In this document: positions 42,546-55,306 of the stretch, piece after piece
Numbering within the stretch: the stretch's first letter is position 1
Layout of the letters: each line of letters starts with the position of its first letter
Virus record (IMG/VR): IMGVR_UViG_3300000976_000008
Span: 239,223 to 303,222 of that record
DNA: 64,000 nt
From: a virus
Taxonomy: Duplodnaviria; Heunggongvirae; Uroviricota; Caudoviricetes
Direction: 5' to 3' (one strand)
Position numbers and translations under genes: made by a program
Notes under the pieces: model-generated
Told to the model about the DNA's origin: nothing
The model's database searches: none
Seen by the model: the letters and a program-made list of their open reading frames with translations, nothing else

Positions 42546-42847
42546 ATATCTTCCTTGTCAACTAATTGATCATTGTGAAGATAATAACGCTTGCGACAAT
42601 ATTTGCAGATATCGGTATTCTTACCTTTAATCTTCTGCTTGTTCCAGTTGCCGTTGCCATCTCTTCTGACATGCCCCATATTGGTGCAAATATCGTCAAT
42701 AGTTTCCCACTTTACGGGCTTGGGTGGAAGTCCCGACCAAACATGATTTTTGACTGGAATTTCTGAGATCGCTTTCTCGATAACAGTGACGATCCCATCT
42801 ATACATTCGTCATCATCAATATCGAATATTAGCGTTACCTGTCGCAT
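42542..42847 (-). CDS. Hypothetical protein
   Basis: 101 aa ORF. Confidence 0.7.
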   Translation of the reverse strand: MRQVTLIFDIDDDECIDGIVTVIEKAISEIPVKNHVWSGLPPKPVKWETIDDICTNMGHVRRDGNGNWNKQKIKGKNTDICKYCRKRYYLHNDQLVDKEDI

Positions 42848-43248
42848 TGATGTAAACCGTTCTCATGGAAGTATTTGTTTCTCTTGCGAAACAAAATTTT
42901 GCCACCTTTGGATCTTTTAGCCCAAAAGCCCCATTTTCTGCGTTCAGGACCTGTGATCATCAGAGTCCAGCAGCCACCTTCATTTACCTTTACGGTATGT
43001 TTGTGTTCTGCTTTAAAGCTCTTAATTGATCCTCTTTTTAATACGGTGTCACCTTCTGGGCTTTGATCAGTATATCCGCCTTTGAGGACGATTGTTGTAT
43101 AATCCCAGGGATGATCGTGCGGTGCCCTATCGTCATCGCTGGCTAACCAGTGATGTAGGCGTAGTGAGAATCATCCGAATTCTAGACACCATCGACGAAG
43201 GTAAACACCGTCGACGCATTTAAGTTCTTGACCCCAGATTATCTTCAT
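42835..43248 (-). CDS. Phage cupin-like protein with one in-frame UGA (codon 26, 43171-43173): readthrough gene or recent pseudogene
   Basis: MKIIWG...YLRRWCLEFG*FSLRLHHWLASDDDRAPHDHPW...LKGGY...HKHTV...WTLMITGPERRKWGFW; ATGA-coupled start. Confidence 0.8.
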
Positions 43249-43942: not shown

Positions 43943-44056
43943 TTCGAATAATTAGGTGCACGTTTTCAGCAAATTGACCGTATTGTTCTTTTTGACAGGC
44001 AACCGACAGTGAAACCGGTGCCGCTTTTAACAGTCTTTTTGACAGAGGAACGACGA

Positions 44057-44410
44057 ATGAGTGTTGCAGAATTGGCTTATGTTGCTGAAACAACCCGCAA
44101 AGACCGAGCACACAATATTGCTATTGCGATATTGAAGCTGAAGGATGGGGAGAATCATGGTGCTAGGACTCGCATGATCAGGAGAGTTATCCGAGAAGAG
44201 TTGGGACTGCCAATTCTTGAGGGTGAAGCGATGAATGGTGACCTCAGAGCACATGGAGATGCTCTCGGAAAGCACGAATTGTTCCTCGATGTTCTGAGAA
44301 AGACGGTTCAAGGAAAAACTGAGCGAGTAGTGATGTTCACTGAAGAGAACGTCAAAAAGTGCGAAGAATACCTTGAGAAGAACGGCGAAGATCAAGAGAA
44401 GATTCTCTAG
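44057..44410 (+). CDS. Hypothetical protein
   Basis: GAGG RBS, ATG 44057. Confidence 0.75.
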   Translation: MSVAELAYVAETTRKDRAHNIAIAILKLKDGENHGARTRMIRRVIREELGLPILEGEAMNGDLRAHGDALGKHELFLDVLRKTVQGKTERVVMFTEENVKKCEEYLEKNGEDQEKIL

Positions 44411-44435: not shown

Positions 44436-44485
44436 GGGGAGGTTCATAGGCTCATCATATGAACCTCCCCTTTCCTTTCTTTTAT
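44436..44485 (+). terminator. Intrinsic terminator
   Basis: GGGGAGGTTCATA-N9-TATGAACCTCCCC followed by T-rich tract. Confidence 0.7.
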
Positions 44486-44490
44486 TTAAA

Positions 44491-44658
44491 TCCGCGACCT
44501 GGGACTCGAACCGCAGGATCTCCCCCATGTTATCACTCCTAGCTCTGACGTTGCAATCATCAGAATTCGGTGTGGCAAATTGGATCGTAAAGCCTAACGT
44601 ACGCTGCTTCACGTTCCTCTCCGCTGGGCGGTGCTTTAACCAACTAAGCTAGTCGCGG
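44491..44658 (-). ncRNA. tRNA-like RNA with about 97-nt insertion in the anticodon arm
   Basis: Acceptor CCGCGAC/GTCGCGG-A, D arm TAGCTTAGTTGGTTAAAGC, T loop GGTTCGAGTCC. Confidence 0.75.
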
Positions 44659-44898: not shown

Positions 44899-45324
44899 TT
44901 AATTCGAGTAAAACTCCTCCAATTCCAGGATGATCGCATTGAGATTATCCGGGATATCGACTTCTTGCACATTCTGGATGCAATCTGCTGGCCGACGACA
45001 GATCTGGTATTGTTTAAGAACGTGCAAGTAAAGATTCTTGTAACGAGATTCTTTACAATTGATTCTCCGGAATCCGAGACCATAGAACTCCTTCTTGTCT
45101 AGCTTATGCATGCCAGATTCGATGAAGTTCTTCGGTGCCTTGGGTTCATTACCAGAGCGGTTCTGAGGCTGCTTGCGAACCCACCGCAAGTACGCCTTAC
45201 ATTCGACATAGGCTCGGAGAAGAAGCTTGTGAGCCTTCTTCAACTTGAGATATGTCTCATAATCGCATGGGTGGTATCCAAAACGGCCTTCAGTGATAGT
45301 ATTAGTAGTTGTTGCAGTCTTCAT
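44899..45324 (-). CDS. Hypothetical protein downstream of Pth2-like gene and leader ORF
   Basis: GGAG RBS; FGYHPCDYETYLKLK. Confidence 0.85.
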   Translation of the reverse strand: MKTATTTNTITEGRFGYHPCDYETYLKLKKAHKLLLRAYVECKAYLRWVRKQPQNRSGNEPKAPKNFIESGMHKLDKKEFYGLGFRRINCKESRYKNLYLHVLKQYQICRRPADCIQNVQEVDIPDNLNAIILELEEFYSN

Positions 45325-45395
45325 TAGTATCTCCAGGATTGATTTTTACAGCGATTTTAATTAAAGTTGAATCAATGAATCTCAAACTAGAGAAA

Positions 45396-45425
45396 CTAAG
45401 GCGGGTCTCTACAAGGTCATAGCAT
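45396..45425 (-). other. Putative leader mini-ORF ML*PCRDPP* (UGA at codon 3)
   Basis: AGGA-N8-ATG CTA TGA CCT TGT AGA GAC CCG CCT TAG. Confidence 0.45.
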
Positions 45426-45429
45426 AATA

Positions 45430-45792
45430 CTATCCTTTCACCAATTGGAGCCTACGGAATAGGCGTCGATCGTCGCCTTTAATGGGTGCGGTTGCGAGTG
45501 CTGTCAATTCATTATCGCGGTCTGGTTCGTAGAATTTCTCGAACCGAATACCGGATGATTGCAGTTTCTCAGCCTGGGCATGAAGTGCGTCTTCATGCTT
45601 GACATGGCACAACACCAAATGAGGGTGTGGCGTGTCTGGAGCGATTCCGCCGCGTCTAGAAATCTCGATTGCGGCGTGGATTCCCTGCACAGCTTGTTGT
45701 GCGGGAGTTAGATCTTTTCGGGTGATCACGTATACGTGTCCACCGTACTCTTCATCAACTGGAAGTCACAGGTCTTTAGTTTGTGTCAGCAT
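45430..45792 (-). CDS. Pth2-like peptidyl-tRNA hydrolase with in-frame UGA at codon 9 (45766-45768)
   Basis: MLTQTKDL*LPVDEEYGGHVYVITRKDLTPAQQAVQGIHAA...FYEPDRDNELTALA; AAGGA RBS before ATG 45792. Confidence 0.8.
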
Positions 45793-45807
45793 GTCTTTTT
45801 CCTTCTC

Positions 45808-47711: not shown

Positions 47712-48217
47712 GAGAGGCTCCTGGGATAGAATTGGTTCAGAGATCAAATACGTGAAAGGCTCGCAGCAAATTATCACTGCGAGCCTTTCTAGCATTATTG
47801 GGCGGGGATCATGGAGCCTTCATGTTGATTATCTTTGGCTCTTACCCCTATAACATTCTCTTTTATTTTCTTTTTATTTGAAACTTTTCTTTTCTTGGTC
47901 TCTTTGACTTGCTCTTGGTCTCTTTGACTTCTCTCAGCGTCTCTGTCTCTCTAAGATACTTTCCCAAACTTCTTTCTGCGAGATGTCGGCCATCCAGAAG
48001 TTTGAGAGGCGGGGTCATAGGGCACTCTGGCCATTCAGCCGCTTAGTGTGCCCTCACCCTTTTATACCTTCACGGGTGGGTGGTGCTCTCGTTCTCATTT
48101 AGTAAGCCTCGCAATTCATTAATGCCTAAGTTCTAATGAGTCATCAGCCCGGCGATCACAGTATCACCCCGAACCTCGTCGCCGCCGTAGCGGACTTCCA
48201 CACTTCGAATACATGAG

Positions 48218-48292
48218 AGGGGCCAGGGGGATTCGAACCCCCGACGAACGCTGGTTTGAAATCAGCCGCTCTGACCACTGAGCTATGGCCCC
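48218..48292 (-). tRNA. tRNA with UCA anticodon (opal suppressor), copy 1
   Basis: GGGGCCA TA GCTC AGTGGTCA GAGC G GCTGA TT-TCA-AA CCAGC GTTCGTC GGGGG TTCGAAT CCCCC TGGCCCC T. Confidence 0.9.
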
Positions 48293-48330: not shown

Positions 48331-48351
48331 TTTATATTTTACTACATTAAG

Positions 48352-48428
48352 CAGGGCCAGGGGGATTCGAACCCCCGCAAGACAGGAATTTGAAATTCCC
48401 CGCTCTAGCCAGACTGAGCTATGGCCCC
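48352..48428 (-). tRNA. tRNA with UCA anticodon (opal suppressor, Trp-like G73), copy 2
   Basis: GGGGCCA TA GCTC AGTCTGGCTA GAGC G GGGAA TT-TCA-AA TTCCT GTCTTGC GGGGG TTCGAAT CCCCC TGGCCCT G. Confidence 0.9.
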
Positions 48429-54589: not shown

Positions 54590-55015
54590 ATGCAAAAAGC
54601 AATATGTAAAAAACATGGAATTTGCGATCATAAATCTCAAGCTAATGGATTTGATCCTAAAGGAAAACGAAGAAAGAATCGTTTACGTTGTGTTCAATGC
54701 TTGCGAGAGAGGCAAAAGAAAGTTTATAGAAAAAAGAAGGAATTTCTTGTAGAGAAACTTGGCGGGAAATGTGCATTATGTGGTTATTTGAAGTGTAATG
54801 GATCATTAGATTTCCATCACATAGATAGAACTACTAAATTTAAAAACATATCACAAATGCTATTAAGAGACAGCTATGAAAAATGTTTGTTAGAAGCAAA
54901 CAAATGCGTCTTATTATGTAGAAATTGTCATGGTGAATTCGAATCTGGACATAACGAAACAGTTAATCAACTAAACGAATTTTTAATCAAGTCCGGGGAG
55001 AATCGAACTCCCTAA
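54590..55015 (+). CDS. HNH endonuclease
   Basis: LGGKCALCGY...LDFHH...EANKCVLLCRNCHGE. Confidence 0.9.
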   Translation: MQKAICKKHGICDHKSQANGFDPKGKRRKNRLRCVQCLRERQKKVYRKKKEFLVEKLGGKCALCGYLKCNGSLDFHHIDRTTKFKNISQMLLRDSYEKCLLEANKCVLLCRNCHGEFESGHNETVNQLNEFLIKSGENRTP

Positions 55016-55061
55016 GCACTAACTTTGGAGGTTAGCCGTCGTACCCACCGACTGCGGACGT
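54988..55061 (-). tRNA. tRNA-Trp(CCA), non-canonical, copy 1
   Basis: CTAAC CT-CCA-AA GTTAG; T arm GGGAG TTCGATT CTCCC; A1-U72, G73. Confidence 0.8.
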
Positions 55062-55070
55062 ATGAAAAAT

Positions 55071-55144
55071 CAAGTCCGGAGAGAATCGAACTCTCTAAGC
55101 ACTAACTTTGGAGATTAGCCGTCGTACCCACCGACTGCGGACGT
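55071..55144 (-). tRNA. tRNA-Trp(CCA), non-canonical, copy 2
   Basis: Tandem duplicate with compensatory T-stem change GAGAG/CTCTC. Confidence 0.8.
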
Positions 55145-55306
55145 ATGGAACATGGAAGTACCGGTCCACGGAGAATGAGGGTTATGACCTAAGAATCAAC
55201 ACACCATGGACCTGCACAATTAGCGGCAAGGCCAATAATAAAAAGTGTGTTGTGAAATAGAAGTGGTCATTGTAAGGTATGTTTGAACGAAAAGGCTATT
55301 TTTCAT

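What the first reader, a model, noticed from the sequence alone, without database searches (positions are those of the whole stretch)
45430..45792. Pth2-like hydrolase requires readthrough of a UGA at codon 9
The ORF track starts at GTG 45729, which lacks an obvious RBS and cuts into the family's first beta-strand (HVYVITRKDL). In frame upstream: AAGGA-N6-ATG CTG ACA CAA ACT AAA GAC CTG TGA CTT..., with a class II promoter 15 nt before the ATG. UGA-C is a weak termination context in E. coli (established). A ribosome-rescue enzyme gated by failed termination would be a sensor-effector loop.
Basis: partly seen in the sequence, partly recalled or inferred. Interest (0 to 1): 0.8.

Follow-up and report, generated by a model that had tools for sequence, protein, structure and literature searches.

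The report
Phage Pth2 gene locked by UGA
A giant phage that otherwise uses the normal genetic code keeps a UGA stop as the ninth codon of a small tRNA-hydrolase-like gene and carries two UGA-reading tRNAs nearby; the same stop-and-tRNA pairing recurs in about a hundred other phage loci, giving these puzzling phage tRNAs a concrete target.

Summary
On the minus strand an SD-preceded ATG (45792) opens MLTQTKDL, then an in-frame TGA-C (45768-45766), then 111 codons of a divergent PTH2-fold protein. The called GTG start (45729) cuts predicted strand β1.

The residues between TGA and GTG (YGGHVYV) are kept in relatives through synonymous changes. All 8 members of the closest clade have their own short leader plus TGA.

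In two independent collections about 90 non-redundant relatives carry a stop 2-10 codons after an ATG: TAG in most, TGA in some. Wherever a suppressor tRNA is found in the locus its anticodon matches (7 TGA/tca, 25 TAG/cta, 0 mismatches in the viral set). The window has two tRNA(UCA) genes 2.4-2.6 kb upstream.

The 408-kb genome is standard-coded, and TGA is its commonest terminator.

Best reading (~0.78): the full-length protein is made only when the phage's own opal suppressor tRNAs decode that UGA. Spontaneous leakiness in E. coli fits less well, and the host is unknown. Enzyme activity and purpose are inferred.

A UGA-gated RDPP mini-ORF and a UGA-containing cupin-like gene lie beside it.

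I found no published description. This scan has reported TAG and TAA versions on other genomes. Nothing here is experimental.

The parts
45430..45792 (-). Full reading frame of the Pth2-like gene: 120 codons if TGA at codon 9 is decoded, terminal stop TAG 45432-45430
   Evidence: The profile of its family hits solved Pth2 structures (2zv3 at 1.5e-8). 39 of 56 relatives hit PF01981. The AF2 model has pLDDT 93 and the top 13 Foldseek hits are all Pth2.
45800..45804 (-). Shine-Dalgarno AAGGA, 7 nt before ATG 45792
   Evidence: An SD-like motif also precedes the leader ATG in most relatives (DNA printed).
45769..45792 (-). Leader of 8 sense codons, M-L-T-Q-T-K-D-L
   Evidence: Leaders of 2-10 sense codons occur in 39 viral relatives. 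The sequence is not conserved and the model is of low confidence here (pLDDT 63).
45766..45768 (-). Gating stop codon TGA (codon 9), followed by C
   Evidence: It is conserved as TGA in L001, L002/L005, L085, L086, L087, L088 and L089 despite unrelated leaders. It is replaced by TAG where the neighbouring tRNA has anticodon CUA.
45727..45765 (-). 13 codons between TGA and the called GTG start (L-P-V-D-E-E-Y-G-G-H-V-Y-V): coding sequence under purifying selection
   Evidence: The codon alignment shows Y-G-G-H-V-Y-V kept through third-position changes. The window's GTG is GTT, GTC or ATC in relatives, so it is not a conserved start.
48217..48292 (-). Opal suppressor tRNA, anticodon UCA, 76 nt, discriminator U
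   Evidence: ARAGORN. Rfam tRNA 63.4 bits against a gathering score of 29. It has a normal 7/5 cloverleaf and short variable region, so it is not a selenocysteine tRNA.
48351..48428 (-). Second opal suppressor tRNA, anticodon UCA, 78 nt, G1-U72, discriminator G; a paralog of the first with a different anticodon stem
   Evidence: (58.2 bits).
45396..45425 (-). Second gated element: mini-ORF M-L-TGA-P-C-R-D-P-P-TAG directly after the Pth2-like gene
   Evidence: Mini-ORFs of the type M-x-stop-...-R/K-x-P-P-stop occur 17-22 times on the gene strand of related loci against 1-3 on the opposite strand. The region around its terminal stop pairs with the SD of the next gene in the MFE fold (z = -1.06, not significant alone).
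44899..45324 (-). 141-aa gene of unknown family downstream of the mini-ORF, conserved partner of the module
   Evidence: tblastn finds it downstream of the Pth2-like gene in 15 loci, two of them near-duplicates of L002. No Pfam, PHROG or Atlas assignment.
42835..43248 (-). Cupin-like gene (phrog_4786, annotated 'cysteine dioxygenase') with in-frame TGA at codon 26 (43173-43171)
   Evidence: The PHROG match at 7e-36 spans the TGA. Invariant Y16 and R19 lie upstream of the TGA, and homologs have W (commonest), F, L or I at that column.

Best explanation
The gene at 45430-45792 encodes a 120-residue, divergent PTH2-fold protein whose synthesis is locked by a UGA at codon 9. The lock is opened by the phage's own opal suppressor tRNAs.

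How it would work:
- Ribosomes start at the SD-preceded AUG 45792 and translate eight codons to reach UGA-C.
- If release factor 2 wins, an octapeptide is released and the domain is not made. At most a little beta1-truncated protein could arise from GUG 45729.
- If one of the two phage tRNA(UCA) species (48217-48292, 48351-48428, same strand, 2.4-2.6 kb upstream) decodes the UGA, the full protein with an intact first strand is made. The inserted residue is probably Trp or another hydrophobic residue.
- The amount of protein therefore reports the activity of the suppressor tRNA relative to termination.

Shown here: the anatomy, the fold, protein-level conservation across the stop, conservation of the stop itself, and stop/anticodon co-variation across about a hundred phage loci.

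Inferred: that the tRNAs are expressed and charged, and that read-through happens.

Also inferred, with less confidence (about 0.4), is what the protein does. It would hydrolyse the ester bond of peptidyl- or aminoacyl-tRNA. That would either clear the by-products of stop-codon read-through in proportion to it, or act on the suppressor tRNA itself as negative feedback.
For: 1. Coding across the stop. Relatives keep Y-G-G-H-V-Y-V upstream of the window's GTG through synonymous codon changes. The GTG itself is GTT, GTC or ATC in relatives. The model places beta1 at residues 19-25.

2. The stop is conserved although the leaders are not. All eight members of the closest clade have one: window MLTQTKDL-TGA, L001 MKNLNDL-TGA, L002 MPTSDDRALC-TGA, L085 MTY-TGA, L086 MNMHLM-TGA, L087 MTH-TGA, L088 MNNT-TGA and L089 MTY-TGA. 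These come from independent samples.

3. Family-wide pattern. 38 of 70 non-redundant IMG/VR loci have ATG, 1-9 further sense codons, then a stop, 9-17 codons (one of 35) before the conserved Arg; 3 of these have a GTG or TTG after the stop. 54 of 67 metagenome loci do too. Five more loci carry internal stops instead.

4. Lock and key.
- In the viral set every gated locus with a detectable suppressor tRNA has the matching anticodon: 7 TGA/tca and 25 TAG/cta, 0 mismatches, Fisher p = 3e-7.
- The metagenome set adds 26 matches and 0 mismatches.
- The tRNA often directly abuts the gene, 12-90 nt away.

5. This is not general recoding. The 408-kb genome has 93% coverage under the standard code, and TGA is its commonest terminator: 268 of 652 greedy ORFs of 50 aa or more, 217 of 533 of 80 aa or more. 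The flanks of most homolog loci are also well covered under the standard code.

6. Context. The base after gating stops is never T and is a purine in 35 of 39 (p = 1.5e-5). The genome's real TGA terminators are most often followed by T (82 of 217).

7. Independent signs that UGA is decoded in this phage.
- A cupin-like gene 2.2 kb downstream needs its TGA at codon 26 read.
- A TGA-gated RDPP mini-ORF follows the Pth2-like gene.

8. The tRNAs are sound. Rfam scores are 63 and 58 bits, and both keep U33 and A37.
Against: - Nothing is experimental. Expression, processing, charging and decoding by the tRNAs are all unknown, as is the host.
- About a third to two fifths of the phage's own genes end in TGA. 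There is no excess of back-up stops behind them (median 17 against 20-23 codons, p = 0.15). An efficient suppressor should therefore be costly, which suggests suppression is weak, timed or context-dependent.
- In the window the tRNAs are 2.4 kb away, not adjacent as in many relatives.
- The cupin-like gene's TGA is followed by T, a strong termination context.
- In L085 and L087 a GTG follows the TGA directly, so termination-reinitiation could work there.
- The window protein alone does not reach any Pfam threshold.
- The family lacks the Lys of the Pth2 'GK' loop: it aligns to Gln32. Hydrolase activity is therefore not assured.
- Loci are phylogenetically related, so the co-variation p-values overstate independence.
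Confidence: 0.78

Rival explanations
1. The UGA-C is read through spontaneously by host near-cognate tRNA (for example tRNA-Trp) whenever RF2-dependent termination is failing. The gene would then sense termination failure as such, and no phage tRNA would be needed.
For: UGA-C is a weak termination context (established knowledge for E. coli). It is seen in the window, L001, L086 and L088. The early position of the stop resembles minigene-like ORFs, where termination is inefficient (my recollection of the minigene literature, not checked here).
Against: Most relatives use UAG, which is not naturally leaky. The stop type tracks the anticodon of a neighbouring suppressor tRNA with no mismatch. Other TGA members have G at +4. 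The phage carries two dedicated tRNA(UCA) genes on the same strand. The host is unknown.
Confidence: 0.08
2. There is no read-through. The ATG-to-TGA stretch is a separate 8-codon upstream ORF. The protein starts at GTG 45729, either directly or by reinitiation after termination at the TGA, giving the 99-residue product that ORF callers predict.
For: GTG 45729 is the first canonical start after the TGA, with a weak SD-like GGTGGA 9 nt upstream. Public gene calls chose it (P0002). In L085 and L087 a GTG directly follows the TGA, which would allow coupling.
Against: The 13 codons before the GTG are conserved as protein through synonymous changes, and the GTG is not conserved. L002 and most TAG-type relatives have no canonical start between the stop and the domain. 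A 99-residue product lacks half of strand beta1. Reinitiation needs neither the same reading frame nor a stop type that matches a tRNA anticodon, yet both hold throughout the family.
Confidence: 0.08
3. The TGA is a recent nonsense mutation or an assembly error, and the gene is a pseudogene.
For: A single in-frame stop near the 5' end is what a fresh nonsense mutation looks like. The record is a metagenome assembly.
Against: Eight independently sampled relatives at 50-72% identity carry the TGA behind different leaders. The rest of the frame is intact and conserved.
Confidence: 0.02
4. The phage, or this part of it, uses an alternative code in general (code 4 or 25), or the UGA encodes selenocysteine.
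For: ARAGORN labels the tRNAs 'SeC'. At least three frames within 5.6 kb contain in-frame TGA.
Against: The standard code gives 93% coverage in every 10-kb bin, with no gain from reading TGA as sense, and TGA ends a third or more of genes. The tRNAs are 76-78 nt with a 7/5 stem layout and a short variable arm, unlike tRNA-Sec. No release-factor gene (PF00472) and no class-Ib synthetase gene (PF00579, the Trp/Tyr enzymes) is present. The leader position is not a conserved residue.
Confidence: 0.02

Closest known systems
Peptidyl-tRNA hydrolase 2 (Pth2, Pfam PF01981; PDB 2zv3, 1q7s, 3erj/1rzw, 1wn2, 1xty), already noted in jumbo phages (Iyer et al. 2021, PMC7824862)
   Same: Same alpha/beta fold (Foldseek TM 0.63-0.72). 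The family profile hits solved Pth2 sequences. The motifs R-x-D-L, Q-x-x-H-A and T-A are shared. The size is about 115-120 residues.
   Different: The window protein does not reach Pfam's threshold on its own. The Gly-Lys loop is shortened and its Lys aligns to Gln. The Asp of the D-A-G motif is an invariant Glu within an E-P-D motif. The jumbo-phage review mentions neither suppressor tRNAs nor stop codons (0 occurrences).
Stop-codon recoding in phages by phage-encoded suppressor tRNAs (TAG to Gln 'code 15', TGA to Trp 'code 4'; Borges et al., bioRxiv 10.1101/2021.08.26.457843)
   Same: A phage-encoded suppressor tRNA is needed to translate phage genes with in-frame stops, and this is proposed as a way to control which genes are translated. 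That paper also notes TGA suppressor tRNAs in standard-code relatives of recoded phages.
   Different: Here the genome is standard-coded and TGA is its commonest terminator. The in-frame stop sits at one conserved place, a short leader, in one conserved gene physically linked to the tRNA, not spread over late genes. The word 'hydrolase' does not occur in that paper.
prfB (release factor 2) autoregulation through an early in-frame UGA
   Same: An early in-frame UGA in a gene for a translation-termination-related factor makes its synthesis depend on how well that stop is recognised.
   Different: prfB uses a +1 frameshift with an internal SD. Here the downstream frame is the same frame, and a dedicated tRNA is the proposed decoder. 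Feedback of the product on the signal is proven for RF2 and only conjectured here.
Arrest-peptide leaders ending in R-A-P-P / R-G-P-P / R-A-G-P (ApdA, ApdP, SecM), for the neighbouring mini-ORF; recalled from memory and from earlier notes of this scan
   Same: A short ORF ends R-D-P-P-stop just upstream of a gene whose SD can pair with the leader's end.
   Different: Ribosomes reach the motif only if the TGA at codon 3 is read through. Arrest was not tested, and the motif is R-D-P-P, not a proven arrest sequence.

Membership tests
Pth2 / PF01981 | Pth2 alpha/beta fold | tested here: met
   The AF2 model has pLDDT 93 and pTM 0.83. The top 13 Foldseek PDB hits are all Pth2 or Pth2-like entries, with E from 2e-6 to 4e-4 and TM 0.60-0.72.
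Pth2 / PF01981 | Significant sequence match to the family model | tested here: inconclusive
   The window protein alone has no Pfam hit at E <= 1 except chance ones. A profile of 56 relatives hits PDB Pth2 chains (2zv3 at 1.5e-8, 24bt at 1.9e-7, 1rzw at 4e-5), and 39 of 56 relatives hit PF01981 (best 3e-11). Membership therefore holds at family level, as a divergent branch.
Pth2 / PF01981 | Catalytic residues (Lys of the G-K loop, Asp of D-A-G, Thr four residues on), as I recall from mutagenesis of the Sulfolobus enzyme; that paper is not held in the library | tested here: not met
   In the HMM alignment to 2zv3 the Lys aligns to Gln32, the Asp to the invariant Glu89, and the Thr to a variable position. 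His39, Asp91 and Thr97-Ala98 are invariant in the phage family.
Pth2 / PF01981 | Hydrolysis of peptidyl-tRNA | not testable with these tools
   Needs an enzyme assay.
Stop-codon-recoded phage (code 4 type) | Phage-encoded suppressor tRNA for the recoded stop | tested here: met
   Two tRNA(UCA) genes.
Stop-codon-recoded phage (code 4 type) | Many genes interrupted by the recoded stop; coding density rises when it is read as sense | tested here: not met
   Coverage is 0.931 under the standard code against 0.921 with TGA as sense, and no 10-kb bin shows a marked gain.
Stop-codon-recoded phage (code 4 type) | The recoded stop is rare or absent as a terminator | tested here: not met
   TGA ends 268 of 652 ORFs of 50 aa or more and 217 of 533 of 80 aa or more. 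It is the commonest stop.
prfB-type autoregulation | Early in-frame stop whose bypass is required for the full product | tested here: met
   TGA at codon 9, with a conserved domain downstream in frame.
prfB-type autoregulation | +1 frameshift at the stop, promoted by an internal SD | tested here: not met
   The domain continues in the zero frame. The other frames close within a few codons (read by eye).
Selenocysteine insertion | tRNA-Sec architecture (long variable arm, 8/5 or 9/4 acceptor/T stems, about 90-100 nt) | tested here: not met
   Both tRNAs are 76-78 nt with 7-bp acceptor and 5-bp T stems and a 5-6 nt variable region.
Suppressor-tRNA-gated Pth2 module (kind seen repeatedly in this scan, unpublished as far as searched) | SD-ATG leader of a few codons, in-frame stop, Pth2-like domain in the same frame, no canonical start in between | tested here: met
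   The window's leader, 8 sense codons, is at the long end of the 2-10 range.
Suppressor-tRNA-gated Pth2 module (kind seen repeatedly in this scan, unpublished as far as searched) | Suppressor tRNA with an anticodon matching the gating stop on the same strand nearby | tested here: met
   tRNA(UCA) x2, 2488 and 2622 nt upstream. There are 0 mismatches in 32 viral and 26 metagenome loci with both parts.
Suppressor-tRNA-gated Pth2 module (kind seen repeatedly in this scan, unpublished as far as searched) | Companion gated mini-ORF ending R/K-x-P-P | tested here: met
   M-L-TGA-P-C-R-D-P-P-TAG at 45396-45425. The strand bias is 17:1 to 22:3 in related loci.

The most novel reading that the evidence does not exclude
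The suppressor tRNAs, the UGA-locked Pth2-like gene and the UGA-locked R-D-P-P mini-ORF may form a self-contained homeostat.
- The leader stop measures the ratio of charged suppressor tRNA to release factor.
- The Pth2-like enzyme then acts back on that signal by hydrolysing the aminoacyl or peptidyl form of the suppressor tRNA.
- A standard-code phage could in this way hold UGA read-through at a set low level.

This would be a tRNA-level counterpart of RF2 autoregulation. It could also be the first step on the road to full stop-codon reassignment.
Probability: 0.2. Interest if true: 0.9.

Novelty: new variant of a known kind. Interest (0 to 1): 0.8.

Why it matters
Many phages that use the standard code carry suppressor tRNAs, and nobody has known what these tRNAs are for. 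A conserved gene that can be translated only with such a tRNA, is physically linked to it and changes its stop codon together with the anticodon would be their first concrete target. It points to a natural translational lock-and-key switch.

- **Annotation.** Gene callers start this family at a wrong internal codon or at the codon after the stop. The public calls P0002, P0003, P0004 and P0006 show this.
- **Evolution of recoding.** It bears on how stop-codon reassignment begins in phages.
- **Engineering.** It offers compact natural parts, a tRNA plus a 3-10 codon leader, for orthogonal control of gene expression.

That the locked gene is a relative of a tRNA-recycling enzyme suggests that read-through and its clean-up or control are coupled.

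Tried and rejected
- **General TGA recoding:** rejected by whole-genome ORF coverage under three codes and by stop usage.
- **Selenocysteine:** rejected on tRNA architecture.
- **Sequencing error or pseudogene:** rejected by 8 of 8 conservation in the closest clade.
- **Sigma-70 promoter just before the ATG:** none found. The only good match lies upstream of the tRNA pair at 48556-48529, and hit numbers are below the shuffle expectation.
- **Near-identical DNA in GenBank phages:** none. The DNA ligase of the window is under 32% identical to any cultured phage, so no host can be named.
- **Pfam on the single protein:** nothing. PHROGs give only unknown-function families and a weak 'hydrolase'.
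- **Phage-encoded release factor (PF00472) or Trp/Tyr-type synthetase (PF00579):** absent.
- **Back-up stops behind TGA-terminated genes, as a sign of adaptation to suppression:** not significant (p = 0.15).
- **Other N-terminally TGA-gated genes genome-wide:** 17 candidates for TGA against 6 for TAG and 9 for TAA. Most lie in frames opposite real genes. Not resolved.
- **Amino-acid identity of the suppressors:** the two tRNAs are nearest to each other and then to CUA suppressors of other loci (L070, L074), not to any of the phage's 21 other tRNAs, so no assignment was possible.
- **Function of the 141-aa neighbour:** no Pfam, PHROG or Atlas lead.
- **The tRNA-like RNA at 44491-44658:** no Rfam match at E <= 1.
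- **The M-M-S-L-TGA frame at 44458:** lies in a 13-bp hairpin followed by a T-rich run on the plus strand. I read it as the terminator of the plus-strand gene 44009-44410, not as a gated gene.
- **Metagenome scan with the wide alignment A1:** It was repeated with the closer set A4.
- **Pth2 mutagenesis paper:** could not be read.
Full report
**1. What is in the sequence**

On the minus strand AAGGA (45804-45800) lies 7 nt before ATG 45792. The frame reads M-L-T-Q-T-K-D-L, then TGA (45768-45766, followed by C). It continues L-P-V-D-E-E-Y-G-G-H-V-Y-V-I-T-R-K-D-L to TAG at 45432-45430.

The mechanical ORF list starts the gene at GTG 45729, giving 99 aa. No ATG, GTG or TTG lies between the TGA and that GTG. 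The promoter claim is not supported: I found no promoter-like site before the ATG.

**2. What the protein is**

Alone it matches no Pfam family. Database relatives exist.
- A profile of 56 of them hits solved Pth2 enzymes (2zv3 at 1.5e-8, 24bt, 1rzw, 1q7s, 1wn2).
- 39 of the 56 match PF01981 individually.
- An AlphaFold2 model (pLDDT 93) has the Pth2 fold. All 13 best PDB matches are Pth2 or Pth2-like structures, with TM 0.60-0.72.
- Strand beta1 spans residues 19-25, so a GTG start at residue 22 would remove half of it.

It is a divergent branch. The Lys of the Pth2 Gly-Lys loop aligns to Gln32, and the Asp of D-A-G is an invariant Glu within E-P-D. Fold membership is clear. Catalytic equivalence is not.

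**3. The stretch between TGA and GTG is coding, and the TGA is conserved**

Relatives called with 'normal' starts begin M-x-x-N-Y-G-G-H-V-Y-V. I looked at their DNA.
- In L085 and L087 the called start is the GTG immediately after ATG-ACG-TAC/CAC-TGA.
- In L086 it is a TTG five codons after ATG-AAT-ATG-CAT-TTG-ATG-TGA.
- L001 (72% identical) reads ATG-AAA-AAT-TTG-AAC-GAT-CTG-TGA.
- L002/L005 read M-P-T-S-D-D-R-A-L-C-TGA.
- The metagenome scan added L088 (M-N-N-T-TGA) and L089 (M-T-Y-TGA).

All eight members of the Y-G-G-H-V-Y-V clade thus have an SD, an ATG, an unrelated short leader and a TGA. In a codon alignment Y-G-G-H-V-Y-V is held through third-position changes. The window's GTG is GTT, GTC or ATC elsewhere. 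This rules out a fresh mutation or an assembly error, and it shows that GTG 45729 is not a conserved start.

**4. The wider family and the tRNA**

ARAGORN finds two tRNAs with anticodon UCA at 48217-48292 and 48351-48428 on the same strand. They score 63 and 58 bits against Rfam tRNA. They have ordinary cloverleaves of 76-78 nt, not tRNA-Sec. They are paralogs with different anticodon stems and discriminator bases.

In 80 IMG/VR loci encoding relatives, in-frame translation upstream of the domain shows the same device again and again: ATG, 1-9 further sense codons, a stop, then 9-17 codons (one of 35) to the conserved Arg.
- Of 70 non-redundant loci, 38 have a leader stop, 3 of them with a GTG or TTG after the stop.
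- 6 are ambiguous because an ATG follows the stop.
- 5 have an internal stop instead.
- 21 have none.

The stop is TAG in most and TGA in some. Scanning the 8-kb loci for tRNAs shows that the stop type follows the anticodon of a suppressor tRNA close by.
- TGA goes with tca in the window, L002/L005, L013, L042, L075 and L087, and in the ambiguous L019.
- TAG goes with cta in 25 loci.
- There are no mismatches (Fisher p = 3e-7; relatedness of the loci makes this optimistic).
- The tRNA is often 12-90 nt from the gene.
- Even relatives without any in-frame stop mostly sit beside a suppressor tRNA, and L021 sits beside an ochre one.

An independent collection gave the same result. Of 67 non-redundant metagenome relatives, 54 have a leader stop (51 TAG, 2 TGA, 1 TAA). 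26 have a matching tRNA in the often short contig, and none is mismatched.

**5. This is not a by-product of general recoding**

The window belongs to a 408,349-bp virus record. Greedy ORF coverage is 0.931 under the standard code and 0.921 with TGA as sense. No 10-kb bin shows a marked gain. TGA is the commonest terminator, ending 268 of 652 ORFs of 50 aa or more and 217 of 533 of 80 aa or more. The flanks of most homolog loci are likewise well covered under the standard code. No release factor and no Trp/Tyr-type synthetase is encoded.

**6. Context of the stop**

The base after 39 gating stops is never T and is a purine in 35 (p = 1.5e-5 against first-position background). The window, L001, L086 and L088 have TGA-C. 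The genome's real TGA terminators are followed by T most often (82 of 217). By established knowledge of context effects on termination and suppression, this is the pattern expected if gating stops are selected to be read and real stops to terminate.

**7. Other UGA-dependent frames beside it**

- Directly after the gene lies a mini-ORF, M-L-TGA-P-C-R-D-P-P-TAG (45396-45425).
  - Mini-ORFs of the type M-x-stop-...-R/K-x-P-P-stop occur 17-22 times on the gene strand of related loci against 1-3 on the other strand, always with the locus's own stop type.
  - In the MFE fold the region around its terminal stop pairs with the SD of the next gene. The energy alone is not significant.
- That next gene (44899-45324, 141 aa, no family) follows the Pth2-like gene in 15 loci, two of them near-duplicates of L002.
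- 2.2 kb further on, a cupin-like gene (42835-43248) matches phrog_4786 at 7e-36 across a TGA at codon 26.
  - Invariant residues Y16 and R19 lie upstream of the TGA.
  - Homologs have W most often at that column, otherwise F, L or I.
  - This is independent evidence that UGA is decoded in this phage, perhaps as Trp. Its +4 base is T, however.

**8. Mechanism**

The best-supported account is that full-length Pth2-like protein is made only when the phage's opal suppressor tRNAs decode codon 9. Its level then reports suppressor activity against RF2.

What the protein then does is inferred from the fold. It would hydrolyse the ester bond at a tRNA 3' end, either clearing by-products of read-through in proportion to it or damping the suppressor itself. 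The missing Lys leaves room for a changed substrate or a non-catalytic role.

The main difficulty is cost. A third or more of the phage's own genes end in TGA, with no excess of back-up stops. Suppression must therefore be weak, timed or context-bound.

**9. Rivals**

- Spontaneous leakiness does not explain the UAG majority or the anticodon match.
- Initiation or reinitiation at GTG 45729 does not explain protein-level conservation upstream of it, the shared frame, or the match of stop type to anticodon.
- Pseudogene, general recoding and selenocysteine are rejected by sections 3, 5 and 4.

**10. Known or new**

- Pth2 genes in jumbo phages are known (PMC7824862). That review mentions neither suppressor tRNAs nor stop codons.
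- Stop-codon recoding by phage suppressor tRNAs as a way to control late genes is known, as are suppressor tRNAs in standard-code relatives (10.1101/2021.08.26.457843). That paper does not mention a hydrolase.
- The theta-ribozyme paper on suppressor tRNAs (PMC10879173) does not mention one either.
- Four further searches found nothing on a stop-locked Pth2 gene.

Within this scan the same module has been reported on other genomes with TAG and TAA. First-stage notes on this genome list the neighbouring UGA frames. I reached the lock-and-key result before reading these notes, and took from them the leads tested in section 7.

I class it as a new variant of a known kind: suppressor-tRNA-dependent translation in phages, here reduced to a conserved single-gene cassette in a standard-code genome. 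This window is an opal example.

Noticed in passing
window 44491-44658 (minus strand); L001 1906-2072: A tRNA-like RNA of about 168 nt. It has an acceptor stem, a D-arm and a T-arm-like hairpin, with about 95 nt inserted where the anticodon arm should be. It lies 240 nt after the 141-aa gene. ARAGORN and Rfam (E <= 1) do not call it. The same element follows the homologous gene in L001 (nhmmer 3.5e-7), so it may belong to the module.
   Followed up: partly
window 45396-45425 and 45325-45395 (minus strand): The mini-ORF M-L-TGA-P-C-R-D-P-P-TAG. The region around its terminal stop pairs at 12 of 13 positions with the SD and start of the next gene in the MFE fold. It looks like a read-through-dependent arrest or attenuation leader. 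Related loci have M-x-stop-...-R-x-P-P-stop mini-ORFs with strong strand bias.
   Followed up: partly
window 42835-43248 (minus strand), TGA at 43173-43171: A cupin-like gene (phrog_4786, annotated 'cysteine dioxygenase') that is intact except for an in-frame TGA at codon 26. Homologs most often have Trp there. It is missed by standard ORF calling.
   Followed up: yes
window 54987-55145 (minus strand): Two tandem tRNA-Trp(CCA) genes lie 6.5 kb upstream of the opal suppressors. They are unrelated in sequence to the suppressors. Whether the phage boosts Trp decoding together with UGA read-through is open.
   Followed up: no
window 44436-44470: A perfect 13-bp hairpin (GGGGAGGTTCATA / TATGAACCTCCCC) followed by a T-rich run on the plus strand. 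It is a likely terminator of the plus-strand gene 44009-44410. On the minus strand it happens to contain an SD-ATG-ATG-AGC-CTA-TGA frame that mimics a gated leader.
   Followed up: partly
loci L064, L071, L081, L083 (high-GC relatives): Here the Pth2-like gene has no in-frame stop and directly follows tRNAs with unusual A34 anticodons (Ile-AAU, Phe-AAA) instead of a suppressor. The gene's link may be to unusual phage tRNAs more generally.
   Followed up: no
loci L006, L007, L008, L011 (and L107, L128, L135): A sub-clade carries a second in-frame TAG at a fixed internal position, just before the conserved H-P-H motif, in addition to the leader TAG.
   Followed up: no
genome G000: 183922-184395, 65510-65953, 187296-187799, 382227-382802: Further frames with SD-ATG, a short leader, a TGA and then a long open frame with no start within at least 8 codons. 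They are possible additional UGA-gated genes elsewhere in the phage. The control counts for TAG and TAA were lower (17 against 6 and 9), but most candidates were not inspected.
   Followed up: no
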